Shown here: in pieces, positions 16,712 through 53,500 of the stretch | How positions within the stretch are numbered: position 1 is the first letter of the stretch | Layout: every line of letters begins with the position of its first letter | Origin: Lama guanicoe | Taxonomy: Eukaryota | Length of the DNA stretch: 64,000 nucleotides | Direction of reading: 5' to 3' | Assembly: GCA_013239625.1 (NCBI GenBank) | Contig: MU055744.1 | Coordinates: 836,355-900,354 of the forward strand | Translations under genes and position numbers: made by a program | The notes under the pieces: model-generated | Told to the model about the DNA's origin: nothing | The model's database searches: none | What the model saw: only the letters and a program-made list of their open reading frames with translations

Positions 16712-17217
16712 TGAGGCGGGAAGCCCCATAAAACAGACCGGCAGGACCCCCAGGCAGGGCCACTACCCTCCTGCCCGCACCATCCAGTTCCCTGGCCCAG
16801 CGGCTTTATCTCACTCTTTGCCTCTGAAACAGCTTACTTCTAGGAAAGTGGAACTTATCCCTAAAATTCTATTGGTTCCCTGAGCTAACTCCTGATTGGT
16901 CTATTTGTAGTGCTTCATTTGCATGGAGCTCACTCCCGATTGGTTATTTCTCCCTCCTGATTGGTCCGTTTCTACAAAGCTTGTTCCTAATTAGTCAACT
17001 TTTGTTATACCTCATTTGCATATGATGTTGCAAAGTGTAGACTGGCAGCCTATAAAGGCCTGTGTAAACCTACAAACGGGGTCCAGAGCTTGGAGTGTTA
17101 GCTCCCCTAGGCCTGCTGGTGTAATAAACCTGAGTTCTCCAACTCTGAGCGCTGCTTGGTCTCTCACCCGGATCCAGGTTGTTGTAGCACTGAGCTATAA
17201 CGCACTTTTCTGCAACA
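16712..17217 (+). mobile_element. ERV1 (gammaretrovirus-like) solo LTR, 506 bp
   Basis: Starts TG (tgaggcggg) and ends CA (tgcaaca); 4-bp TSD TCCA at 16708-16711 and 17218-17221; 4 ATTGG boxes, 2 ATTTGCAT octamers, TATAAA 17051, AATAAA 17123. Confidence 0.9.
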
Positions 17218-18329
17218 TCCAGACAACTGGTCCGCCCTTCCCACCACGCATGACTCCCCAGTCCCAGGAGAAGAGCCAGCAGGGAGCGGGCAGCAGATTA
17301 GAGTCCACTGCTCCATTGATACGGAAATCGTTGTCCATAATTATCCCCAGTTCAGCCATGACCACCTCGTGCATTACAACTGACGTCCCTTCTGGAAAGC
17401 CAGAGTCAAAAACAGTGAGAGGTGGAGGCGTGGGAACAGACAGCCTCGAGGCTGGGCCTGGATGCGGCCCTCCACTCCGCAGGGGTCTTGGCGATCCCTG
17501 CCCACGGTCCTCAGTATCCCCAGATGAGGAAGGCCTGGGTCAGAGTTCTCAGGGCTTTTCAGCTGGGCCTTCTTCCCCTCCACCGTGTCCCAGGCCTCTT
17601 TGGGCATCTCCACCGGTGGCAGGACCCAAGGGGAGCAGAGCCCAGCCGGTCACGTTGAGGCCACGGAGGGACAAGGAGGAGGCTGGGTAAAGGGGGAGGG
17701 AGGGCTGGACAGCACCCACGGGCAGGATGCCAGCAGGCCCAAGGCTCGCAGCTCGGGGGAAGGGCCCGGGGAGGAGGCCTGGGCCTGGGCAGGCAGGCAG
17801 ACAGAGGCGCCCCAGCCCAGCCCCCGCGACGTCCCAGAAAGCCCGGCCCGGCCAGCGGGGGACCGAGCAGCCCTGGCCCAGCTTCAGGGCCGAGTCCCCT
17901 CTCCCACGGCCACAGCTGGGCAGCAGCTGTTTGCTTCGGAGACCTCCCCCGCTCCCCCGCAACATCCTTCGCTTCCAGTGCTTTTTGCTCCAGTTGGAAT
18001 TCCGCTCCAAATGGTAAACATTTTATCTCCATCTGTGAGGCTCCCATGCGGATGACTTTAACACAACATGGAAAATAAATACCTTTTGCTCCTCCGCTGA
18101 GGACGGGAGTCAAGAGTTGAGAAGATGAGTCGGCTGTGCAGCCAGAGGGCAAGCTTCTGGCAAAACACTCCGCCTTCCTCTGGACCACAACCAATGAAGG
18201 GAGCCTGCCCCCACCTCAAGGGCCCCCTCTGGGGCTGGGAGATGATGGCATCATCAGAGTCAGGACACAGGGGTCCACTCAGGAGTTTTGTTTCTATCCC
18301 GTCTGGCCCAGAGCCCCCCACGGAGGGGG

Positions 18330-27525: not shown

Positions 27526-28140
27526 CGTAATGAAAAATATATTGCCTATCACATCAGTGAGCAAAGGGCGCTGCAGCCACCAGCCACCAGCCACGAACGC
27601 AGCCCCGAAGGTAAGCGGAGGGGACTCAGGATGGAGACAAGGCCCCCAGCCTCTGCAGCCGCCCCCAACGGCACGCCCAGAGGGGACCCGGGATGGAGAC
27701 AAGGCCCCCAGCCTCTGCAGCCGCCCCCAACGGCTCGCCCAGAGGGGACCCAGGATGGAGACAAGGCCCCCAGCCTCCACAGCCGCCCCAACGTTGCGCC
27801 CAGAGGGGACCTGGGATGGAAAAGGCAGGCCGCTGGCCTGGACAGCGCAGGTGCAGGTCAGAGGAGTGAGTTCCAGACTCTTGCACCTTCCCATATGCAG
27901 ACAAGCGCTAAGCTCCTTAACTGGAGATAGCTGGTTTTCTTTAATTAACAGTCATCTGCTCATGTTCTGACTCCCTGGTCTTTGTTGCAAAAACGCCTAT
28001 GTGTCCTGGCTCCTCCCCGGCCTCTTCAGAGCGGCCCCTCGCGGCCATCTGAGAGGCCCTGCCCAGACTTGAGTCCTCAGACAGTCCAGCGAATAAACCT
28101 ACCTCCCCTCGGAGGCTGTGCACTGTTTCCTGACGTGACA
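27526..28140 (+). mobile_element. ERV1 solo LTR (MER41-like, cetartiodactyl type) with internal tandem repeat
   Basis: Starts (c/t)gtaatgaaaaatatattgcc, AATAAA 28092-28097, ends gtgaca; resembles recalled artiodactyl MER41-like LTRs; no TSD recognised. Confidence 0.65.
27618..27820 (+). repeat. About 3.2 copies of a 62-bp unit (GGATGGAGACAAGGCCCCCAGCCTCTGCAGCCGCCCCCAACGGCWCGCCCAGAGGGGACCCR)
   Basis: 'atgga' recurs at 27631, 27693, 27755, 27816. Confidence 0.95.
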
Positions 28141-30859: not shown

Positions 30860-31260
30860 TTGACACTGAAAAAGATACAAATAAATGGAAAGGTGTTCCG
30901 TACTGCTGGGTTACAGGGATGAATGTCGTTAAAATGCCGCCACTACCCAACGCCCCCTGCAGACCCGGTGCAAGTCCAATGGCACCCTGCACAGGAAGAG
31001 AACGAGCCGTCTGCATTTGCATGGAACCAGACAGCAAAAGCAATCGTGAGAAAGAGCGAACCTGGAGGCACCACACGTCCTGAGTTTAAACTATGTTACT
31101 AACCTATAGTCATCCAAACAGTGTGGCGCTGGCAGAAAAACAGACACACAGACCAAGGCACCAGAACACAGAGCCCCAGATAAACCCACATACACACGTT
31201 CTGTTAGCTTACAACAAAGGAGCCAAGAACACACAGTAGAGAAAGGGTGGTCCTTTCGAC
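30860..31260 (+). mobile_element. L1M ORF2 fragment (left part, interrupted by Tigger1)
   Basis: 'aaagatacaaataaatggaaaggtgttccgtactgctgggtt...gttaaaatgccgccactacccaa', 'tagtcatccaaacagtgtggcgctggcagaaaaacagacacacagacca'. Confidence 0.85.
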
Positions 31261-32720
31261 CCGGCAGACCTCGTTCTATGGTGCCCCCCTCTATTGTGCT
31301 TTGTACCCCAATTGTTGCAAAGTAAAGGTTGTGGCAACCTCGCCTCGAGCGGGTCTGTCGGCGCCGTTGTCCCAACAGCGTCGGCTCACCCTGTGTCCCT
31401 GCATCACGTGTGGGTTATTCTCACAATATTTCAAATTTCTCGGTACCTCTGAGTCGGTTGCTACTGTCATTGTTCCGGGTGCCACGAACCTCGCCCGCGT
31501 AAGACGCGACCTTAACCCGTGAGCCTCGGGTGCGGTCGGACGGCTCCGCCGAGGGCCGCTCCCCGCCTCCCTCGCTCTCCCCGGGCCCCGCGGCCCCGAG
31601 ACTCGGCAGCGCGGGAGTCAGGCCCGCTGACAGCCCTGCGTGGCCTCCAGGTCCGCACGTGAGGGAGGAGTCTCCCACTCTCCATCCGCAGCTGGAAACG
31701 ATGACGCTTCGTGAGGAAGGCGCGTCGAAAGTCAAGGTCGGCCCAAAACTCGGCCTTCTGCACCAGTCAGCCCAGCTGTGCGGGCAAAGGGAAGGCCCTC
31801 GAAGGCAATCGAGCGCGCCGCTCCCGTGCACACACGAGTGATGAGAAGGGAACCGGCCCTGTTGCTGCCCCGGGGGAAGCCTGCGTGGTCTGCAGCGAAG
31901 ACCAGGCCGGCCTCACGCCCCCGTCGGCCAAGGCCGCGCCCGGAGCGGGGCCCCGGCCCCCTCCATCCTGCGGCGGCGGGAGGCCCCGGGGGCGCGTGAG
32001 GCCGGCGGAGGCCGGCGCCCGAGGCGGAAGGACAGACGCCGGCTCGCAGCCGCCAAGGCCGAGGTGACCGGCGAGTCATGCGCGAGGTGGGGCGCGGCCG
32101 TTCACGGGGGGCTACACTGAGCGCAGGCTTTCGGGGCGGACGGGGCCGCCGTCTGCCGGAAGGGGCCGCCGCCCGGGGCCTCGCCGTCCGGAGAGGAGCC
32201 AGTGCCCGGCTCCCGGCGCCACGGGCGGGTGGCCGTCCCGGCAGGGGCTCACGCAGCTGGCGACCGGGCTGGAGCCAGGGCCCGCCGGCCGTTCCCTGAC
32301 TCCCAGGCCCTTCAGGGGGCGCCGGGGCTGCTCTGCCCGTGCCCGCGGCCGGGCCGACGCCGGCTCCTGCCGCTGCGCGCCCGCTGCCGGGAAACAGCTT
32401 CCCTTCAAAGCGCCCCGGCCCTGGACGCACCTGGGCCCCCGGGCGCTCTGACGGGACGGACGGCGCCACGGACGCGGTTTCCCCGCTGACGGCGCCCGTC
32501 CTGCAGCCCGGCTCAGACGTCATTTCAAGTCTTATTACCCAAGAACTGTGTTCTGTACGAGTCCAGCTGCCTTACATAGTGGTTCCTCTGATGGGTCTGG
32601 GCAAAGTAAAGTGAAAGCCTTCTGGAAAGGACTCCGCCTTTGGGATGCCACGAAGTCCACATGATCACGGGAAGAGGCCAACACAGCAACATTCACAGGC
32701 ATTTGGAAGACGCTGATTCA
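31261..32720 (+). mobile_element. Tigger1 (TcMar) DNA transposon fossil with degraded transposase; centre converted to a CpG island
   Basis: 5' end 'ccggcagacctcgttctatgg' resembles Tigger1 CAGGCATACCTCGTTTTATTG. Translations TLHPQLETMTLREEGASKVKVGPKLGLLHQ, KAIERAAPVHTRVMRR and VVCSEDQ match recalled TPase TLNQKLEMIKLSEEGMSKAETGRKLGLLRQ, KEIKSATPVNTRMIRK and VVWIEDQ. 32520-32720 is close to consensus. Frameshifted; right end missing. Confidence 0.9.
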
Positions 32721-33410
32721 AGACAGCAACCCTGGCAACGGTTTCGGATGTGACACTAGAAGCAAAGGCAACAGAGGCACAAGTAAGCACGTAGAACTAC
32801 ATCAAACTGAGATCCTGAGCCCAGCAGACAAAGGGAACCCTCCACACGGCGGGGAGGCAGTCTGTGGGGCCGGCACGCGAGTTTGCACATCACATATCTG
32901 ATAAAGAGGTACGATCTGAGCTGTATGAAGAACCACACAACTCAGTAACAAAAAACAACAAATTGCTTTAAAAATGGGCCAAGGAATTGAATAGACGTTT
33001 TTCCAAAGACACGTGCAGGTGGCCAACAGGCATGCGACTCGGTGCTCAGCACCACTAGCCATTCAGAGGATGCGAATCGAACCACCGCGAGGCACCGCCA
33101 GCCCTGCGAGAACGGCCGTCACTGGAAGAAAAGAGGTAACCGGTGTCGGCGAGGACGTGGAGGGAAGGGAGCCCCTTTGCTGGTGGAATGTAAACGGGAG
33201 CAGCCACGATGGGAAATTGCACGACATTCCTAGAAAAGTTTAACACAGAGCTACCGTGTCACCCAGCAACCCCACCTCTGGTGTTTATCCGAGGAAGTGA
33301 ACCCCTACCTCAAAGCAGTGTCCGCAGCCCGCGTTCACTGCGGCGCTGATTGCCCAGACATGAGACGACCCAAGCGTCCGGGGTGGGCGGACGGCTAAGA
33401 AGACCGGGGA
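32721..33410 (+). mobile_element. L1M ORF2 3' fragment (right part)
   Basis: 'agaactacatcaaactgaga', 'catatctgataaagagg', 'aaaaatgggccaaggaattgaatagacgtttttccaaaga', 'gctggtggaatgtaaacgggagcagccac'. Confidence 0.85.
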
Positions 33411-35001
33411 TGCGGGAGAACCCCCTTGTTTACATCTCTGGTAAAAGGACAGGGTAGATTAATGGGGCAGTCTCTCACCGAGGAACAAAAGTGCTTAAAA
33501 AAATTTAAAGCAAAGACATAGCAAGGTCATGGGAATAAGGAGGCCACGGTTGACGGGAGTGGAGCCTGCACGCAGCGCTCTTAATCAAAAGTTTGTAGGA
33601 AAACCAAGTGGACCTTGGGCGTCAACATCTCATGCAGGACACAGAGACACCCGCCCAGCCCCGCTCATCGGGGTGGCCCCCAGGAGGCAAGTGAACCAGA
33701 AGCAGACCCACCAACAGCCCCCCAGGGTCACCGGGGAGCCGCCTCGGGGCGGAGCGCGGGGCTGGGGCTGGCGGTGGGGCTGTCCCTGGGAGCTGGGACC
33801 GCCGTGCAGACCCACACCTCCCAGTGACTCAAAGGAGCCTCATCAGGGAACTTAGATCAAAGTGACCCTGGCTCTGTGCTGGAGGACCCAGAGGGACCAG
33901 GGGCAGACCCTCCTCTCGGAAGTTCACCTTCATCCACGACCTCAAAGGAATTCCACAAATTATTTACTAACAACAAGCAGTCTCGGTAGAAGTGCAGAAG
34001 GAACAAAACGCCAAGATTGAGGGACAGGAGAGGAAACAGATCCACCAACTTCAGATACTGGAAAAGTCTGACGTGTTCTGAAACAGCCATGTCTCTGTCA
34101 AGCTTAAAGAAATGAGAGCCAGATGGAAAATCCACTGGGAACTATTACAAAGGAACAGATAGCGTAAAACCAAATAGAAAGCTGGCCATGAAGAAGACGG
34201 TAATTAAAATTACTTATTGAATTTCTGTTTCCATAGAAAATTCAATTCAACTGAAGGAGCTTTACTGTGAAAATACAGAGCCAATGTGCACGCCGCACAA
34301 GACCCGACACGCTAGCGCAGGCCAGGCCAGAGGCGGTGCAGGCCCCACCACGCAGGGACAGGCATGGCCCGAAGGGACAGAACGGCCCAAAAAGCCAGGG
34401 AAGCCTGGGCAGGGCTAACAGAAAGGCCTGTGTCCCTGGGCTCGTCTTAGTGAAGCTGCAGAGAGAAGGAGGACAGGTGACCCCTGAACAGCACAGGTTT
34501 GAGCTGAGCGGGTCCACTTACACACAGGTTTTTTTCAATAAATATATCGGGAAAGTTTCTTCGGATATTTGCAATAATATGAGAAAACTTGCAGACAAAG
34601 TATATTGCCTGGAAATATCAAAAAATATTAAGAAAAAGTTACGCACGTCACGAACACATCGAGTGCGAGCAGATACCTGTCTGTCCTCGCACGGCTGGCA
34701 TCGTCCCTCGGCGGCCGGTGCCGGGCGCAGCGCGCTGTGTCCCGCGGGCGGTGGCCGCCGGCCCTGGCGGGCAGCTCGCCTCGTCGGCGGGCGCACAGCC
34801 CGGGACTCCGAACGTATCTCCTCTTCCTGACAACTGCCCTAACGTTTTCTGCTCTCTGGCTTGCTTTATTGTAAAACTACCAATAAAACACGCAAAACAC
34901 GTGTCATGAACCGTTCACGTTGTCAGCACGGTCCGGTCAGCGCTGGGTTATGAGCGGTTCAGATCTGAGGGAGTCAGAAGCTCCCCGTGCATTTTCGGCA
35001 G
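32846..35001 (+). repeat. 2,156-bp tandem duplication, copy 1
   Basis: Sequence and ORF track repeat with a constant offset of 2156 (e.g. ORFs 33013/35169, 34267/36423). Confidence 0.97.
34474..35001 (+). mobile_element. Tigger2a/MER28-like non-autonomous TcMar element, copy 1 (right TIR cut off by the duplication junction)
   Basis: 'caggtgacccctgaacagcacaggtttgagctgagcgggtccacttacaca' resembles Tigger2 CAGTTGACCCTTGAACAACACGGGTTTGAACTGCGCGGGTCCACTTATAC. Confidence 0.85.
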
Positions 35002-37157
35002 ACGGCGGGGAGGCAGTCTGTGGGGCCGGCACGCGAGTTTGCACATCACATATCTGATAAAGAGGTACGATCTGAGCTGTATGAAGAACCACACAACTCA
35101 GTAACAAAAAACAACAAATTGCTTTAAAAATGGGCCAAGGAATTGAATAGACGTTTTTCCAAAGACACGTGCAGGTGGCCAACAGGCATGCGACTCGGTG
35201 CTCAGCACCACTAGCCATTCAGAGGATGCGAATCGAACCACCGCGAGGCACCGCCAGCCCTGCGAGAACGGCCGTCACTGGAAGAAAAGAGGTAACCGGT
35301 GTCGGCGAGGACGTGGAGGGAAGGGAGCCCCTTTGCTGGTGGAATGTAAACGGGAGCAGCCACGATGGGAAATTGCACGACATTCCTAGAAAAGTTTAAC
35401 ACAGAGCTACCGTGTCACCCAGCAACCCCACCTCTGGTGTTTATCCGAGGAAGTGAACCCCTACCTCAAAGCAGTGTCCGCAGCCCGCGTTCACTGCGGC
35501 GCTGATTGCCCAGACATGAGACGACCCAAGCGTCCGGGGTGGGCGGACGGCTAAGAAGACCGGGGATGCGGGAGAACCCCCTTGTTTACATCTCTGGTAA
35601 AAGGACAGGGTAGATTAATGGGGCAGTCTCTCACCGAGGAACAAAAGTGCTTAAAAAAATTTAAAGCAAAGACATAGCAAGGTCATGGGAATAAGGAGGC
35701 CACGGTTGACGGGAGTGGAGCCTGCACGCAGCGCTCTTAATCAAAAGTTTGTAGGAAAACCAAGTGGACCTTGGGCGTCAACATCTCATGCAGGACACAG
35801 AGACGCCCGCCCAGCCCCGCTCATCGGGGTGGCCCCCAGGAGGCAAGTGAACCAGAAGCAGACCCACCAACAGCCCCCCAGGGTCACCGGGGAGCCGCCT
35901 CGGGGCGGAGCGCGGGGCTGGGGCTGGCGGTGGGGCTGTCCCTGGGAGCTGGGACCGCCGTGCAGACCCACACCTCCCAGTGACTCAAAGGAGCCTCATC
36001 AGGGAACTTAGATCAAAGTGACCCTGGCTCTGTGCTGGAGGACCCAGAGGGACCAGGGGCAGACCCTCCTCTCGGAAGTTCACCTTCATCCACGACCTCA
36101 AAGGAATTCCACAAATTATTTACTAACAACAAGCAGTCTCGGTAGAAGTGCAGAAGGAACAAAACGCCAAGATTGAGGGACAGGAGAGGAAACAGATCCA
36201 CCAACTTCAGATACTGGAAAAGTCTGACGTGTTCTGAAACAGCCATGTCTCTGTCAAGCTTAAAGAAATGAGAGCCAGATGGAAAATCCACTGGGAACTA
36301 TTACAAAGGAACAGATAGCGTAAAACCAAATAGAAAGCTGGCCATGAAGAAGACGGTAATTAAAATTACTTATTGAATTTCTGTTTCCATAGAAAATTCA
36401 ATTCAACTGAAGGAGCTTTACTGTGAAAATACAGAGCCAATGTGCACGCCGCACAAGACCCGACACGCTAGCGCAGGCCAGGCCAGAGGCGGTGCAGGCC
36501 CCACCACGCAGGGACAGGCATGGCCCGAAGGGACAGAACGGCCCAAAAAGCCAGGGAAGCCTGGGCAGGGCTAACAGAAAGGCCTGTGTCCCTGGGCTCG
36601 TCTTAGTGAAGCTGCAGAGAGAAGGAGGACAGGTGACCCCTGAACAGCACAGGTTTGAGCTGAGCGGGTCCACTTACACACAGGTTTTTTTCAATAAATA
36701 TATCGGGAAAGTTTCTTCGGATATTTGCAATAATATGAGAAAACTTGCAGACAAAGTATATTGCCTGGAAATATCAAAAAATATTAAGAAAAAGTTACGC
36801 ACGTCACGAACACATCGAGTGCGAGCAGATACCTGTCTGTCCTCGCACGAGTGGCATCGTCCCTCGGCGGCCGGTGCCGGGCGCAGCGCGCTGTGTCCCG
36901 CGGGCGGTGGCCGCCGGCCCTGGCGGGCAGCTCGCCTCGTCGGCGGGCGCACAGCCCGGGACTCCGAACGTATCTCCTCTTCCTGACAACTGCCCTAACG
37001 TTTTCTGCTCTCTGGCTTGCTTTATTGTAAAACTACCAATAAAACACGCAAAACACGTGTCATGAACCGTTCACGTTGTCAGCACGGTCCGGTCAGCGCT
37101 GGGTTATGAGCGGTTCAGATCTGAGGGAGTCAGAAGCTCCCCGTGCATTTTCGGCAG
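35002..37157 (+). repeat. 2,156-bp tandem duplication, copy 2
   Basis: Only differences noticed: 33649 A vs 35805 G, and 34694-34695 GC vs 36850-36851 AG. Confidence 0.97.
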
Positions 37158-40050: not shown

Positions 40051-40229
40051 GATGGGGCGTGAGGAGCGGTGCCACCAGCCGATGCAAAGGGAGGCAAAGG
40101 CCACACCATCTGTCTCCACCGCCCCAGCCAGGGCGGCGCGGGGACTCAGCCCGCCCCAGGGCAGTTCTGTGTCCATCGAGAGGCTATTTCTCAAATAAAG
40201 ACACAACCATCGACAGGGAAGGGGCTAGT

Positions 40230-40755
40230 GAGGGCCTTGAGAATTTCAAATTAATTCACATAAACCTGAGTGATTTGCCAGCCATTTCTTGACAAAAAAA
40301 ATTTGCTAAAGACCAGATTAAACACCAGCGACAAGTATCGGACACCCACAGGGTGGAGATATTGGGCTGGGCACATGGTACCCAGGATTATAAATAAGTG
40401 CAAATCATAAACGCAGAGATTAGAAATACAGATGCGGCTGCGCGGGACGCTGACAGTAACCAAGGCCACACAGGCAGGCCGCGCACCTTCACCTGCAAGG
40501 CTCTGCATTGCAACGGCAGCTCTGTTCAAAACTATTTCCAAAAATAAAATGCTCTCTAAAAATAGGAAAACATACCTGAGTACACTGAAGTGAAATAAAA
40601 TCTGTGCTGCTACAGGACCCCCTTGGCTGAGCGGATCTGTAAATCTTGCCCCTGGTGTTTATTTCAATTTGGTTTTATTTTTTTCCTGGTTTCCATGAAA
40701 CTGCTGGTAAATCATTCGAATTTATGTGAATTAATTTGAATTTCTTGAGGCCCTG
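40230..40755. mobile_element. About 525-bp element with about 60-bp terminal inverted repeats, probable ancient non-autonomous hAT-type DNA transposon
   Basis: 40230-40292 is the imperfect reverse complement of 40692-40755; perfect 20-bp core 40245-40264 / 40721-40740; right end reads CAGGGCC on the minus strand, as in hAT-Tip100 ends. Confidence 0.7.
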
Positions 40756-40782
40756 ACTAGACCTTTCTCTGTAAATCATGGT

Positions 40783-40944
40783 AATTTTTTTTCAATTTTC
40801 AGTTTATTTTTAATTCTTTTTGGGTGGGGGGAGGATAATTGGGTTTTCATTTGTTTATTTACTTTAGTGGAGGAGCTGGGGATTGAACCCAGGACCTTGT
40901 GCGTGCGAGGCATGCGCTCTACCACTGAGCTCTGCCTTCCCCCT
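40783..40944 (-). mobile_element. tRNA-derived camelid SINE (Vic-1-like), older copy with long tail
   Basis: 'ggaggagctggggattgaacccaggaccttgtgcgtgcgaggcatgcgctctaccactgagct' plus the 'ggggggaggataattgggttttcatttgtttattt' tail. Confidence 0.85.
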
Positions 40945-41099
40945 CAGACCAGGGTATTTTTATTTGAGAAAATATATTCTTCATAAAGGCTGAGACAGCA
41001 CGTACGTTTAAGGCGATTTCTGCTGGGTGAAGGAAATTCACAACCTTGGGTTTATTTGTTTGGTGTTTTTTGTTGTTTATTTGTTGTCTTTTGTTGTAC

Positions 41100-42560
41100 T
41101 TAAATGTGACCATATTTCAGCCCAAGTGTTCTCTCAGGTGCTGCGTTTGCACCTCTGTTCGGGGTGCCTTTCTCCCACAGATACGTTTGTAACACAAAGT
41201 TCAAATGGGTTGTTGCTACATTTGACTCTTTCGAATGGCCGTCTCAATTTTGTTCCGTTTAGCTTCAGCATATAAATTTACCCAATTAAACCTACAAGCA
41301 CCATCAAAACGTTCCTCCCACAAGTACGATTTTTCCAAAGCACAATTACACGACTTGAAATTAGATCTCGTGCACTGTCTGAGGCCTGGAGCGAAGTCTG
41401 TCTGTCTCCCCTTTGGCTTCCACGGGGATAAACGGCAGTGCCCTCCACGTGGGGACTTTGTTTTCAATCATGACGATTCTTAGAAGATTCGAAAGCTCGG
41501 GGGCTTTGGCTCCGTTTGTCACATCGATCACTGAAAGCCGTCCAAATGAATTCAAATAGAACGCAGGAGACTCCCGGGTGATACTTCGATGGCGCAAACA
41601 CGCCTGAAGCCCGGCCGCAGGCGGCAGGCGGCAGGCGGCAGGCGGCAGGCGGCAGGCGGCAGGCGGAGAGAGCGCGCGCCGCAGCGCGGACCGGCTCGCC
41701 CCTTCGTCGCGCGGCCCCTCCCCGGCGCGCCGTGCGTGCGCCGCCCCTGCGCACACGCGGGCGCTCGGGCATTCGGGTGCCTGCGCCGTCCGTTTCCATC
41801 GGCTGCACACGGCGTGGCTTCAGTGCGGTTAGGGGTCCTGCGCACGTCGCAGCCCGTTCCCAGTAATAAAGAATGAGTTCCTCGATTTCGGCAAAATGCT
41901 GTATTTTTTTAATCACGGAGCTACGATCCTCCAAAATTCAGCCTCTTGTCACCTTCAGAACAAACAAACTTCAGTGTTGAGGGGCTCGTTTGGTTTTCCC
42001 TGCACGTGCAGCCCTGTTGACAGCACACCAGATGTTTCTCGTTTGTTCCAATGAACTTCCAGGTGTTCCCCTCTGTTCCATCCACTGGGTTAAAAAAATA
42101 AATAAAAATGGTTTGGGAATGAATTTAACTGGTTTCCTGCTCGAAGCAACTGATGATGCAGATCTAAACAGGTGCCCCCAGGGGCGGGACAGTGCGCTGG
42201 TGACACGCGCAACCGGGACCGGGGACGAAGAAAGCGACTTTCCAAGAACAGACGCTCACTCCGAGTAAAATCACGGGCTCCACCGCGTGGGCGTCAGCGC
42301 AGCCCTTGCGGCCACGCGGGTGCCGCTGTCTCCCGCCCCCAGAAGCGGGCGGGCCGGATGGCCACGCCCACAGCCCCGCCCCGAAGCGGGCCGGGCCCGC
42401 TGGCCACGCCCACCCGCTCTCGCCCTGCCGCCATTGCCGCGCAGCCCCGCCGGCCTTACGCTCGATGGCCGCTCCCTTCTCTTCGAGGCTTTGCGAGGCC
42501 CGGTCTCCACGTTTCTGCTCGCTGCCGCGTGGGCTACTGCAGAGGTTTTAAAGCATTACC
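41100..42560 (-). mobile_element. hAT-Blackjack-like transposase fossil (frameshifted)
   Basis: Minus-strand peptides, in order: SASSVASSRKPVKFIP (cf. SVSSDASNRKSVKLIP, first catalytic D region), GDKRLNFGG (cf. GDNTNTNFGG), LLGTGCDVR (cf. LGIGCxxH), RALPFIPVEAK, and NCALEKSYLWEERFDGACRFNWVNLY (cf. NCALEYLDLWEESFDGA..FNWINLY). Comparisons are to recalled consensus. Confidence 0.8.
41617..41665 (+). repeat. (GCAGGCG)7 perfect heptamer tandem repeat
   Basis: Seven exact copies; gives the RLPPAAC repeats seen in the ORF track. Confidence 0.97.
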
Positions 42561-43450
42561 AAACAATAAAAAACAGTTGCGGATTTGCACCCTGCAGCCC
42601 CTGACAAACCGCGGGAGAGGTTAGGCTGGTCCCGACCCCTCGGCCCTCCACGCGGGCTGCGCGCAGTCCGTGGCTTCCCGACGCGAGCCTTCCCCGACCC
42701 AGCCCCTGGGCCCGGTGGCCCGCCCTCACTCGGGGCGGCCCCGGAAGACGGCCTTCAGGTAGGACCCCTGCCGTCAGACTCCCGTGCAGGGCCAGGCAGG
42801 AGGTCGGGGCGCGCGACGCCTCGGGGCAGGGCGGGCGGCCGGAGAGCCAGCGGCCTGGCGGGGGGCGCCCCTGTGCGGCCGCCCTCCGCGGCCTCCTCCG
42901 GCGGCGGTGGTCCGGGGGGACGGGTGCCCCCGGAGCGGCTCGGCCGGCCCCAGAGTGCAGAGCCGGGCTGGGCGGCAGAGCAGCGGGCTGGGTGGGAGGG
43001 CCCCCGCCGAGGCGAGCGTGCAGCCTTCGGGCACAGAGACCCCGGGAGGGCGCCGTGCCTCCACGCCCCCGAACGGCCTCCCTCCGACAAGGCAGGGCTG
43101 TCAGGCCCCATCAGACCTTCCGCCCCGGGGGCCACTTGCCTTCTGCATCGCTCCGCGACCCAGGCGCGGGCCCACCGTCCCCGGCCACACGGCCTCGGCC
43201 GGCTGCACGCGCCACGGGCCCGCGGGCGCCTCGCTCCGCAGCACGGGACCCGCGGGACGTGCCTCGGGCCAGCGGGGCGGGCCTATGGCGAGGCAGCGGC
43301 ACGGGACCACCACCCCCGGCCCCGGTGGCCCTGCCTCCCACCTCGTCACCCAGAAAGCTCCGTGGCGTCCTACCTCCTGGCCCGGCTGGACGGTGGCCTC
43401 TGTGGAGGAGGACGCTGTCCTTCCGTGTAACAGCCAGCAGGTAGAGACAG
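42280..43450. promoter_or_regulatory. Orphan CpG island (about 85% GC at its core)
   Basis: 42841-42900 has 51/60 G+C with dense CpG; no associated exon recognised. Confidence 0.7.
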
Positions 43451-43860
43451 CCCGCAAGTCCACCGGCAGGAACCGGTGAGCAGACGTGGTCTGTGCTCTC
43501 GGCGGAGCAGCGCTCAGCCACTGCAGGGGGCGGCGTCCTGGTGCCCGTCGCGCTGGGGACGGACCTCAGAAACCGACGCGGGAAAGCAGCCAGGCAGGAG
43601 CGGTCACCCATCGTGCGACCCCGGGGAGAGGGAAGGCCACAAAGAGCAGATCCAGGCGGACGGGCGGCTGCCGGGAAACTGGGGCAGAGGAGCGGGCGTG
43701 GTTATTTCATGTGCGTGGGGCGATAAACACGTTTCCGAGCTAGCTGGAGGGCTGGCCGCGCGACATCGTGAATGCGCTAGACGCCACTGAGCTGTTCACT
43801 TTAAGGTGGATAATTGTATGTTATGCAAATTTCATCTCGCTAGAAATACATTAAAGAGAA
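43330..43860 (+). mobile_element. L1MB-like 3' end, GC/CpG-shifted in its 5' part
   Basis: 'gacatcgtgaatgcgctagacgccactgagctgttcactttaaggtggataattgtatgttatgcaaatttcatctc' matches the L1MB terminus. Confidence 0.8.
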
Positions 43861-46704
43861 AAGGGAAAGGTTCCGTATATATTTTGAGCCCTTGTGCTTC
43901 AAGGCGCCATAAACGCTTTGAACCGGCGGCCACTGTTCAGTGAGCGCTTTGAGCCCAGAAAGTAGAAGGCACGGACCTGGGAGCCAAGGCGCGCGCGGCA
44001 CAGCCCTTCCCACCGCAGCGGCCCTCCCACGCCCACCCCGAGCCCAGCCCTGGGAATCCGGCTTCCATCCTCACAGCTTCAGTCTGTAGCACGAGAGGCC
44101 CAGTCCCCAGGGATGATACCCTTCCTCCAGGGAGGTTCACAAGGGTCTCTGCGAACCTCCTGCTCTCGGTTCCCTCAGGGTAGCTGAGCCAAAAGCAAAG
44201 AAAGGGGTGCCCCATCCTCCCTCCCCACCCTCCCCACGAGGGGCTGGGGGTGCAGCCGCGTCATGGGGCAGGAGGGTCGTTCTGGGCGCCCTCTGGGGGC
44301 CACCACCCTGGGGATAAGAGTCGATGGACCACCACAGCAGCCAGGGACAACGGAAGCCGGGACTCCCAGGCCTGGCGCGGGAAGGCTGCGGTCTCTGCAT
44401 GGCGAGCAGCCCAGGCCCGCAGAAGCGTGGGTGCGGGGGTGGGGTCAGGCAGGCGGGGCCAGGCAGGCAGGATGTAGCGAGGATGCACCGGAAGGCATTC
44501 CAGCTCATCCCACTAACTCTCCTGAATTGAGGCGGGGTTTTGGGGGATGCTGAGAGCCACCATACTGAAGCATCAAAGACCGGACAGAAAGGGCCGGTGG
44601 AGAGGCTCAAGGAGTCTGAACAAGGCGAAAACCTGCCCACACGCCCTCAGCCTGCCCCGGGTCACGTGGGCAGCGCACCATGACCCCTGCTGCCCACCGT
44701 TCTTAGCCGGGAGGCTTCTCTGCTGAGGGGTTGCTCTGTCCATGAACACACAGGACTGAAGTCCCCAGAACAACCCTCGAAGAACAAGGAGTCAGAAGTC
44801 CCCAGTGTCCCCACCACCCTCAGAGAGAGAGCTCAGAGGCTCCGCTCATTAGGACACACTCTTGGTCCCCCTCCCCCATCTAACTTCCCCACGGCCTCGC
44901 AGGGACTCCCAGGAGCACCTCCGCAGTAAACTACTTGCATCCAGATCTCTGTCTTGGGGTCTGCCTGGGTGGGAAGCCAGCCTACGGCACACTCAGGCCC
45001 CCGAGGCCGTCCTGGGCGGGAAGACGTCCGTTGTGCCTGAGAAGGAGAAGGAAAATCACAGCCGGCCCCGGGCTCACGGCCCAGAATTAACCACACGGTG
45101 AAGGGGCCGTCCCCCAACTGCCCCCGAGAAGAGGCTTCAAACTGGACTTTCCAGGCAAACCCAGAGCCAGCCAGGCACTGGGCACCGGCCCCTTCCTTCT
45201 AAACAGCGGAGACGTCACCTTAGGCTCCGGACCCACCCGGCCCAGCGTCCAGCACCGTCTCCTGCTCAGAGGACAGGGGGACCCTGGTGCCTGGTGGTGC
45301 GTCCTCTGCCCGTCCTCCACCACCTGTCCTCCCCTGCAGTCGGGGACCCAACCAGATGCTGCCTGGTTCCGTCCCTACCCCTCACTCTGCTCCCATTCAT
45401 GTCCTCCCATTGCTCCAGAGGGCGACTGTACAACAGGCGCACGGGGACACTGAGACAGGGCATAAAATGCTGAAACACTGCCTGTCGCTCAGCAGGGACA
45501 GGGACTTTCCATGCTCCCCTCTCCTTCCAGACACCGGGGCCATTCAGAAACGAAGGGGTTAGTTCCAGGACCTCACTCCAGCCTGGCTATCTGCCCGTTC
45601 TCAGCACCCTGCCTCACCTCCTCCCCGTTGTCCTCCACCCCTTTGTCTCGCTCACCTCCAGAGAACCCTAGAACCTGCCCTTTCTGCACCTCCCACTTGG
45701 GGAATTATACTCAGTTCTCAGTCCCTTGGCTAAATCTCTCCTCTCCTACAGGGCTAGCTCCTTTGGCGCAGGGCAGGGTGGTTTTTTGGTTTTTTGTTTT
45801 TCTTTCTTGCTTGCTATTGTGTTCTCAGCACCGGGCAAGGTACCAGCCCAGACCAGGAACTCAGCAACTGCCTGCTAGGGGATGAATGAATGCGTGAATG
45901 AAATGCCCTCTGAGCTGGCGCCCCGCCCCCCCGCCAGCCCCCACCGGTTACAGCAAGCAGCGCACGCGGGCATCCCGGCTGCGCTGTGACTCTGGACTCT
46001 CGGGAATGCTTTGGCAGCACAAAGAATTCTGCTCCAAACCCCAACTGGACTCCTTATCTTCAAGGATTGCACAAAACACTGGAACTCACTTTAATCCTAA
46101 CTGTCCGTTTAGAGAACATGCAAACCAGTAAGGCTCAAGGGCGGGGGTGGGGGGGGCGGTGAACTCGGCAATCCTCCATCTGAATCAGATGCTGGGCGGG
46201 CGTGAGCCGGCTGTTCTGAAACACACGGACAGATTCCTAACGCTCGTGTTGAAAGCCTGCAGAGGCACATCTGGGCTCACTGGCGGCACAGGCCTCAGCT
46301 GGAGGGCTGGACGTGGTCCTCCTTCTGGTGGGCTGACTTGCGACTTCAGGCGTGGCCTGACAGGGGCACCTCGACCAGCCTTTGAGAAGATCCACATCCT
46401 ATCTTCTCCAAAACCTTCCGTGACACCCGAGGACGTGGACGGAACTTTATATAAGTCAGCAGTGGCTTGTTCTCCAGCTCCACTGCCCGGCAAGCCCCGC
46501 CGCGCGCTCGCTGCACTGCAGCAGGGGGCGGGAGGGTTACACGGACACGGGGTCGGGGGGGGGGCCAGGTCGTCGCCACGAAGCAGGTCAGGGCACCGAA
46601 GCAGCTAGGGGGCGTCCCTGGAGCCAGACAGGCTTCAGATCACAGCTGCCTACTCAGCCCCTCCATGGCCCACAGCAAGTCACTCACCCCAGAGCCTCAT
46701 CCAT

Positions 46705-52499: not shown

Positions 52500-53500
52500 T
52501 CGCTCTCGGCACCACTGTGACGCCCCTTCCACGAGGGACTGAGCCCTGAGGTCCCTGCAGGAAGTGTGGCTGGCGCGGGGCGCGGTCAGCACTTCCTTGG
52601 GGCCTCCCCCCTTCCTGGGGCCCACATTCAGAGTGAGAGGGGTTGGGGGGGCTCGCGTGGTTCAGACACCGCTGTCTAACGCTGGACGCTCCGTCGGGCG
52701 CACTCACCCCGCGCCCCCATGGAGCTGGGCAACGCCTTGCGGGCCTGCAGCACCTACAGCCGCTGTCTCTGCTCCGTCCGGGCTCCCCCTGCCCCGCGCC
52801 GTGTGCGCGCCTCGTACACATCTGCCCTCGCAAACTGCAGCTCAGCGTCCACACTCGGAGCACCTAGCCCGAGACAGTGGTTCCGAGTGGTCCGAGGAGG
52901 CTGTGTCCCAGCTGGTTGCCAGGGCACAGACGGCCTACAGGGCCCGCTGTGCTGGTGTCGCGACTTCGACCAGGAGGAGCTGGACGGTGTTGCTGCTGGA
53001 CGGGCAGATGGTATCTGCGAGGAACAAGGACTGATGGTCACGGCAAAGCCCGCTGGTGCTGCCCAGAAGGACAAGGGACCCCTGAGAGACCCCGAGGGCC
53101 AGGACAGGCAGTGGAGCCCAAGTGGGAAAGCCAGGGGCCTGCGGGGAGGGGACGGCTGAGAGCGCCCAGGATGCGCCCAAGGTCAGAGGTGGCCGGAGTG
53201 GCTGGACTCCACAGACAGCCAGACGTCCTACAAGGCGGGCCAGCTGGGCCAGGACCAGGGGCCTGCGGTGGGGAGGGTCTACACCATGACACGGGGGTGA
53301 GATACCCAAAGGTGCACGCTCTCCGGCTCCTCCGAGCGCCTGAGCCGCAGCGTAGCCCACCCCCCCGGCCCTGAGAGACAGCAAGCGCGGCCCCCGCCTC
53401 CCCTGCACGCAGAGCCCCATTGCAGGCTGACTCAAGGCGGGGCGGAGGGGGCAGCGCCCAGCAGCAGGGGGGCTGGCGTGTGCGCAGGAGACCGGGGTAG
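52500..53500 (+). mobile_element. Class III ERV (HERV16/ERV3-16A3-like) remnant: LTR 3' end (to 52876), tRNA-Leu-type PBS, degraded 5' gag
   Basis: LTR end 'cacctagcccgagaca' followed by 'gtggttccgagtggtccgag' (cf. gttggtgccaggagtggtccgag); 'cccaagtgggaaagccaggggcc' and 'ctgagccgcagcgtagcccac' resemble recalled ERV3 gag text. Confidence 0.6.

What the first reader, a model, noticed from the sequence alone, without database searches (positions are those of the whole stretch)
41100..43860. Second TE-built CpG island spanning unrelated fossils (hAT-Blackjack, possible MIR, L1MB 3' end)
Seen: the GC/CpG peak ignores element boundaries. It covers the 5' part of a Blackjack-like transposase, a very GC-rich core (42600-43330, where 43155-43280 may be a GC-converted MIR) and the 5' half of an L1MB 3' end. 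It fades back to near-consensus AT-rich sequence at 41221-41280 (21/60 G+C) and 43790-43860. Inference: the cause is positional (a recombination or methylation domain), not a property of the TE family. This island looks like a promoter, but much of it derives from repeats and no gene is apparent.
Basis: partly seen in the sequence, partly recalled or inferred. Interest (0 to 1): 0.72.

Follow-up and report, generated by a model that had tools for sequence, protein, structure and literature searches.

The report
CpG island rewritten from dead transposons
A 2.7-kb CpG island between two genes in a mammal (probably a camelid) is about two-thirds made of two dead, originally AT-rich transposons whose A/T bases were replaced by G/C, most likely by the known GC bias of meiotic recombination; it is a clear example of a known process, and nothing here shows that it works as a promoter.

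Summary
The island is real: 41301-44000, GC 0.65, 268 CpG, the largest of 26 islands in 354 kb, and intergenic (41 kb past the RXRA stop). About 65% is transposon-derived. 40517-42612 aligns colinearly to a 2,933-bp hAT family (Blackjack type) rebuilt from 45 loci of this genome, and 43428-43857 is an L1M 3' end. In the hAT, 35% of ancestral A/T became G/C (55% at the peaks), against 12% in other copies. [quoted passage not shown] The proposed MIR failed its test. The core (about 42750-43427) could not be assigned; it may be the saturated 5' end of the hAT or an older island. A relative carries the same island, with no excess of CpG decay. Its RNA libraries give thin, unspliced cover, which does not show transcription. 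gBGC-made orphan islands are published, and this scan noted several elsewhere in this genome.

The parts
41301..44000 (.). CpG island, 2.7 kb, GC 0.65, 268 CpG, with three GC sub-peaks; intergenic
40517..42612 (-). hAT DNA transposon fossil (Blackjack type, name recalled), family positions 144-2272 of 2933, covering most of the transposase frame; weak extension to about 42750
   Evidence: colinear nhmmer hits; GC-aware local alignments with 0 of 100 shuffles as high in eight blocks; extension test
41745..41865 (-). most rewritten alignable hAT block: 52 of 84 ancestral A/T sites are now G/C; 17 CpG, none ancestral
42203..42321 (-). second rewritten hAT block: 37 of 72 A/T sites now G/C; 16 CpG, 1 ancestral
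42322..42549 (.). GC-rich stretch bracketed by colinear hAT blocks; hAT-derived by position (inferred), with no residual similarity
   Evidence: 51 of 100 shuffles as high
42613..43427 (.). core, GC 0.78, 98 CpG; unassigned beyond about 42750; single-copy; the slot (815 bp) would fit the missing 660 bp of the hAT 5' end
43428..43857 (+). L1M-type 3' end; W>S falls from 0.57 at its left end to 0.19 at its right end
40789..40940 (-). young tRNA-derived SINE (camelid type, recalled) inserted in the hAT; 6 of 31 W>S, 1 of 37 S>W
40166..40298 (+). inverted second copy of a hAT piece (family positions 394-536), forming an inverted repeat with 40694-40772

Best explanation
This is an orphan CpG island in which two dead AT-rich transposons (a hAT and an L1 3' end) have had a third to over half of their A/T bases replaced by G/C, most likely by GC-biased gene conversion at a long-lived recombination hotspot within a generally high-recombination, GC-rich region. 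Shown: the transposon origin of about 65% of the island, the directional and strand-symmetric A/T-to-G/C excess, that nearly all CpGs are new, and that the drive is also regional. Inferred: recombination is the cause; the island is unmethylated in the germ line, so new CpGs persist; hypomethylation then keeps attracting PRDM9-independent breaks (a feedback loop); most of the rewriting predates the split from the relative that was sampled. No function is needed to explain it.
For: hAT blocks 41091-42611: W>S 255/730 = 0.35 against 2861/23833 = 0.12 in other copies at the same columns; peaks 98/179 = 0.55 against 0.13. W>W 31/730 = 0.04 against 0.05; S>W 35/213 = 0.16 against 0.26; A>G 0.26 equals T>C 0.25; transversions to G/C are raised as well; W>S is 0.50 at peak sites that cannot make a CpG. 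The 43 other copies have W>S 0.125 +/- 0.017, maximum 0.18. The L1 piece has W>S 107/243 and 37 CpG where 3 were ancestral. Regional drive: 14 L1 ends in 354 kb have W>S 0.17-0.48 (two are copies of one duplication) against 0.124 for 50 on other contigs; 11 young SINEs have 64/336 against 53/825 for 27 elsewhere. Among 40 of 73 listed differences from a relative, C>T/G>A changes are no more frequent at CpG (4/221) than at other G/C sites (8/463), as expected without germ-line methylation. Papers: PMC11161765 (passages, part 2 of 8), PMC4350167 (passages), PMC11170920 (passages).
Against: No recombination, DSB or methylation data were available, so the cause is read from substitution patterns alone. 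The core (30% of the island) is unassigned and could be an older host island that seeded the process. It differs less from the relative (15/358) than two neighbouring hAT records do (37/439; p = 0.02, post hoc; all four hAT records give 55/794, not tested). S>S changes are somewhat raised (16/213 against 0.035). The profile has troughs of 100-300 bp, which a single smooth hotspot does not predict. An apparently intact PRDM9 is present, so a series of PRDM9-directed hotspots is also possible. Only 12 differences could be polarised (window lineage 5 W>S, 3 S>W, 1 W>W; relative 1 W>S, 2 S>W), too few to show ongoing drive. Comparison copies were found by BLAST and lean towards low divergence; counts are not corrected for multiple hits.
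Confidence: 0.72

Rival explanations
1. The core is an older, functional CpG-island element (a lncRNA promoter or distal enhancer). It acted as the hypomethylated seed, and gBGC then spread GC into the transposons on both sides. The flanks are explained as in the best reading, but the island did not arise from transposons alone.
For: The core has no detectable hAT, L1 or MIR similarity and is single-copy. W>S in the L1 falls steadily away from it. Its divergence from the relative is lower. RNA-library contigs of three studies cover parts of the island at depth 2-9. Transposons are usually scarce in islands (PMC12582260, Results part 1 of 2).
Against: 42322-42549, bracketed by hAT, has also lost all similarity, so saturation alone can erase it. 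The slot fits the missing hAT end. There are four indels in 42714-42917, one of 23 bp. Two GC sub-peaks lie inside the hAT, up to 1 kb from the core. No splice joint or defined start was seen, and DNA carry-over is not excluded. Lower divergence is also expected near GC equilibrium.
Confidence: 0.22
2. Loss of methylation alone, or GC-rich repeats and slippage, made the island, with no recombination bias.
For: CpG decay appears to have stopped. A short GC-rich tandem repeat and a small duplication contribute locally.
Against: The ancestral hAT stretch had about 10 CpG against 121 now, so there was little to preserve. W>S is raised at non-CpG sites and for transversions, while A<->T is normal.
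Confidence: 0.03
3. Selection for GC/CpG content or for binding sites, after exaptation of the transposons as a regulatory element, drove the changes.
For: GC boxes occur at 5.8 per kb against 1.9 in the whole window. Orphan-island gains track enhancer activity (PMC11170920, passages).
Against: The same bias affects all kinds of repeats across 354 kb. Hundreds of substitutions of every W>S type are too many for site-by-site selection. The GC-box density is expected from the GC content.
Confidence: 0.03

Closest known systems
gBGC-generated, lineage-specific CpG islands and GC-peaks of dog (Berglund et al., PMC4350167; passages read)
   Same: Non-genic island with a W>S excess and reduced CpG decay; new islands attributed to gBGC.
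   Different: Dogs lack PRDM9, whereas this genome has an apparently intact one. Here the ancestral state comes from transposon families, and the island is larger (2.7 kb against a mean of 481 bp in their Table 1).
PRDM9-independent hotspots at hypomethylated loci in placental mammals (Joseph et al. 2024, PMC11161765; passages and part 2 of 8 read)
   Same: High equilibrium GC at promoter-like, hypomethylated sites in species that keep PRDM9.
   Different: The words camel, alpaca and Vicugna do not occur in its main text (supplements not read). It studies loci orthologous to mouse default hotspots, not islands made of repeats. Hotspot activity here is inferred only.
Orphan CpG island turnover (PMC11170920; passages read)
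   Same: Names gBGC and transposon insertion as sources of orphan islands; many overlap gBGC tracts.
   Different: Enhancer activity was measured there and is not shown here. The CpGs here were not imported by the transposon but arose after insertion.
hAT Blackjack (listed as an autonomous human hAT family in PMC5753468; passages read)
   Same: About 2.9-kb element with short terminal inverted repeats and a hAT-type transposase.
   Different: Identity with the Repbase/Dfam consensus rests on recall. This copy is dead, interrupted and GC-rewritten, and its own ends are not recognisable.

Membership tests
CpG island | over 200-400 bp, GC above 50%, CpG o/e at least 0.6 | tested here: met
   2.7 kb, GC 0.65, o/e 0.93; criteria as given in PMC12582260
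CpG island | unmethylated in the germ line | tested here: inconclusive
   indirect only: no CpG-transition excess among 40 of 73 listed differences from a relative; no methylome available
gBGC tract | W>S excess with S>W reduced | tested here: met
   0.35 against 0.12 and 0.16 against 0.26
gBGC tract | GC-neutral changes not raised, strand symmetric, independent of CpG context | tested here: met
   W>W 0.04 against 0.05; A>G equals T>C; non-CpG W>S 0.33 against 0.13; S>S mildly raised
gBGC tract | elevated recombination, or GC-skewed allele frequencies | not testable with these tools
   no map available; the one DNA run laid returned no records
PRDM9-independent hotspot | breaks at a hypomethylated site regardless of PRDM9 binding | not testable with these tools
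   PRDM9 exons are open, with five zinc fingers; no DSB data
hAT transposon (family level) | short terminal inverted repeats | tested here: met
   the family consensus from 45 loci has matching inverted ends; not recognisable in this copy
hAT transposon (family level) | hAT transposase with C-terminal dimerisation region | tested here: met
   the family frame matches a profile of 150 ZMYM1-like hAT proteins at positions 661-721, E 2.3e-7 for a three-sequence search; Pfam found no transposase family in 20 window and 10 copy fragments
hAT transposon (family level) | 8-bp target-site duplication | tested here: inconclusive
   three copies with both ends gave no clear duplication
Blackjack | match to the Repbase/Dfam consensus | not testable with these tools
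   length and end motif agree with recall only
L1M 3' end | match to a dispersed family ending in an A-rich tail | tested here: met
   27 other copies found; E 3.1e-36; the L1 and L1MB labels are recalled
MIR | similarity to a MIR profile, allowing for GC conversion | tested here: not met
   a profile from 54 copies finds no hit in the core; 287 of 300 shuffles as high
Gene promoter or first exon | transcription start, spliced transcript, conservation in outgroups | tested here: inconclusive
   thin unspliced RNA-library contigs in a relative; no coding exon; no outgroup available

The most novel reading that the evidence does not exclude
Camelids, despite an intact PRDM9, may run dog-like stable default hotspots strong enough to build multi-kilobase CpG islands entirely from dead AT-rich transposons. 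This one, the largest island between RXRA and the probable COL5A1 promoter, may be 100% transposon-derived (the core being the hAT 5' end rewritten past recognition) and may now act as a new enhancer or promoter in reproductive tissue. That would be a regulatory element born without selection and invisible to repeat annotation.
Probability: 0.15. Interest if true: 0.6.

Novelty: new member of a known kind. Interest (0 to 1): 0.3.

Why it matters
It is a clean worked example, with the ancestral sequence known from the transposon family, of recombination bias creating more than a hundred CpGs where there were about ten. It also shows that such rewriting can erase repeat similarity completely, so repeat-free islands may be under-recognised as transposon-derived. 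The process itself is published, and this scan has found it several times in this genome, so the single locus adds little unless function or a camelid-wide hotspot regime is shown.

Tried and rejected
Protein-level identification directly from the window failed: Pfam on 20 frames, tblastn with two own-genome hAT-derived proteins, tblastn and a profile from 150 relatives, and two homologue searches with single fragments gave nothing. A third homologue search returned one 173-aa record that looks like another mammal's fossil copy. The protein atlas gave no result. A MIR in the core was rejected. Leftward extension of the L1 into the core and rightward extension of the hAT past about 42750 had no support. 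An early alignment that seemed to place a converted hAT end near 42865 was dropped when the family proved about 480 bp longer. Rfam found only the SINE's tRNA head. DNA run X2 returned no records, so no polymorphism data were obtained; parts of the island without RNA cover are not evidence. COL5A1 could not be confirmed by Pfam or PDB; the name is recalled from the exon peptides plus one Gly-X-Y exon. Paper searches showed no listed paper with PRDM9 in camelids (15 of 129 listed), none on this interval (12 listed) and none combining five of six repeat/gBGC terms.

Full report
Setting. The window is G000:C6096:836355-900354 of a 2.05-Gb genome. A tRNA-derived SINE of camelid type (label recalled) points to a camelid. 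A coding-potential scan of 354 kb found RXRA exons on the minus strand at 921-946 kb (Pfam; PDB). It also found a collagen gene whose exons I recall as COL5A1 at 690-749 kb, with a probable promoter island at 789-790 kb (not confirmed). The finding lies between them, 41 kb past the RXRA stop and about 88 kb from that promoter. No coding exon was found in it.

The observation. 41301-44000 has GC 0.652, 268 CpG and o/e 0.93, and is the largest of 26 islands called in the 354 kb. In 100-bp bins it has three GC sub-peaks (about 41600-41800, 42300-42500 and 42600-43700) with troughs of 43-52% GC between them.

The hAT. Searching the genome with the window gave one family copy. That copy led to others (30 of 46 matches were fetched as loci). 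A profile from 85 fragments in 45 loci is 2,933 bp long, GC 0.32, with matching inverted ends and a broken minus-strand frame. Its C-terminus matches a profile of 150 ZMYM1-like hAT proteins (E 2.3e-7, three sequences searched). The name Blackjack is recalled; PMC5753468 (passages) lists it as an autonomous hAT. The window matches this family colinearly from 40517 to 42612. With a composition-corrected matrix, eight blocks beat 100 of 100 shuffles and fall in the expected order, including the GC-rich 41745-41865 and 42203-42321. The other 15 segments tested, among them the core and all controls, did not. 42322-42549 is bracketed by hAT blocks but keeps no signal. The match stays about neutral to 42750 and then decays.

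The L1 and the MIR. 43428-43857 matches a profile of 27 other L1M-type 3' ends. It does not extend leftwards. A MIR profile from 54 copies finds nothing in the core, with or without GC tolerance. About 65% of the island is therefore assigned to repeats, and the core is unassigned and single-copy.

Direction of change. At well-supported columns, with inferred ancestral CpG left out, the hAT in 41091-42611 shows W>S 255/730 (0.35) against 0.12 for other copies at the same columns; at the peaks it is 98/179 (0.55). W>W is 0.04 against 0.05, S>W 0.16 against 0.26 and S>S 0.075 against 0.035. A>G equals T>C. Sites that cannot form a CpG are converted almost as often as those that can. Symmetric and GC-tolerant matrices give nearly the same counts. 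The 43 loci with at least 300 scored columns have W>S 0.125 +/- 0.017. The ancestral stretch had about 10 CpG and now has 121. The L1 shows W>S 0.57, 0.52, 0.34 and 0.19 from left to right. This is the gBGC pattern. Loss of methylation alone would preserve CpGs but would not create this excess, and general hypermutation would raise W>W.

Position, at two scales. The 14 L1 ends in the 354 kb have W>S 0.17-0.48 (one duplicated) against 0.124 for 50 elsewhere; the island's is second highest. Eleven young SINEs there show 0.19 against 0.064, so the drive continued after the SINEs inserted. The island is a local maximum on a regionally driven background.

The relative. Three RNA runs from three studies carry a form that differs by 3-10% per contig, has the same GC-rich island, and covers 41670-42960 and patches beyond at depth 2-9, with no splice joint. 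This does not show transcription. In one run the window has G/C where the relative has A/T at 35 sites and the reverse at 17 (p = 0.018). Only 12 of the 40 listed sites could be polarised. Since these differences are few compared with the rewriting, most of it predates the split (inference). CpG sites do not differ more often than other G/C sites (4/221 against 8/463), which suggests an unmethylated germ-line state. The core differs less than the adjacent hAT (15/358 against 37/439, post hoc) but carries four indels.

Mechanism. Most likely, after the transposons died in a high-recombination region, repeated conversion tracts fixed G/C alleles. New CpGs accumulated, the patch became hypomethylated, and it likely kept attracting PRDM9-independent breaks, as described for many PRDM9-bearing mammals (PMC11161765, passages and part 2 of 8) and for dog islands (PMC4350167, passages). 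PRDM9 looks intact here, so successive PRDM9 hotspots could also explain the sub-peaks. Whether the core seeded the island or is itself rewritten hAT remains open.

Novelty. gBGC as a source of orphan islands is in print (PMC11170920, passages; PMC4350167). Islands are normally poor in transposons (PMC12582260, abstract and Results part 1 of 2), which makes a 65% repeat-derived island unusual but not new in kind. No supplements were read; they may hold camelid data. Earlier notes of this scan report similar islands elsewhere in this genome (unchecked) and none for this place. Verdict: real and well explained, a new member of a known kind; interest 0.3.

Noticed in passing
window 32843-37157: Tandem duplication of 2,159 bp with only four differences (one at the edge); a recent duplication or an assembly artefact.
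   Followed up: partly
window 31201-32800: The first island (GC 0.67, 163 CpG) also overlaps old repeats. A GC-tolerant MIR match at 32249-32309 was reached by 1 of 100 shuffles, and the adjacent L1 piece has W>S 0.36.
   Followed up: partly
G000:C6096:676355-1030354: Region-wide GC drive in L1 ends and young SINEs; some SINEs have 11 of about 30 A/T sites changed.
   Followed up: partly
G000:C6096:910455-913550 (L067): Another 1.7-kb island just 3' of RXRA, next to the most GC-shifted L1 end of the region (W>S 0.48).
   Followed up: no
G000:C9322:4264779-4277630: PRDM9-like locus with open KRAB, SSXRD and PR/SET exons and a short array of five C2H2 fingers (domain labels other than SSXRD recalled).
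   Followed up: partly
window 40166-40298: Inverted duplicate of a piece of the hAT, 81% identical over 79 bp to 40694-40772.
   Followed up: partly
L083: Another copy of the same hAT family is mildly GC- and CpG-enriched (GC 0.38, 45 CpG).
   Followed up: no
P0151 and L072: A 173-aa public record begins with the same fossil frame as L072, sharing its gap; possibly the orthologous insertion in another mammal.
   Followed up: no
window 41876-41878: The relative has 33 AT-rich, TTA-like letters here that the window lacks.
   Followed up: no
window 52700-53020: CpG-rich patch with exon-like borders on the minus strand, seen by eye; no coding signal in the scan.
   Followed up: no
window 16790-17220 and 27620-27810: An LTR-like element and a short GC-rich minisatellite, seen by eye.
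   Followed up: no
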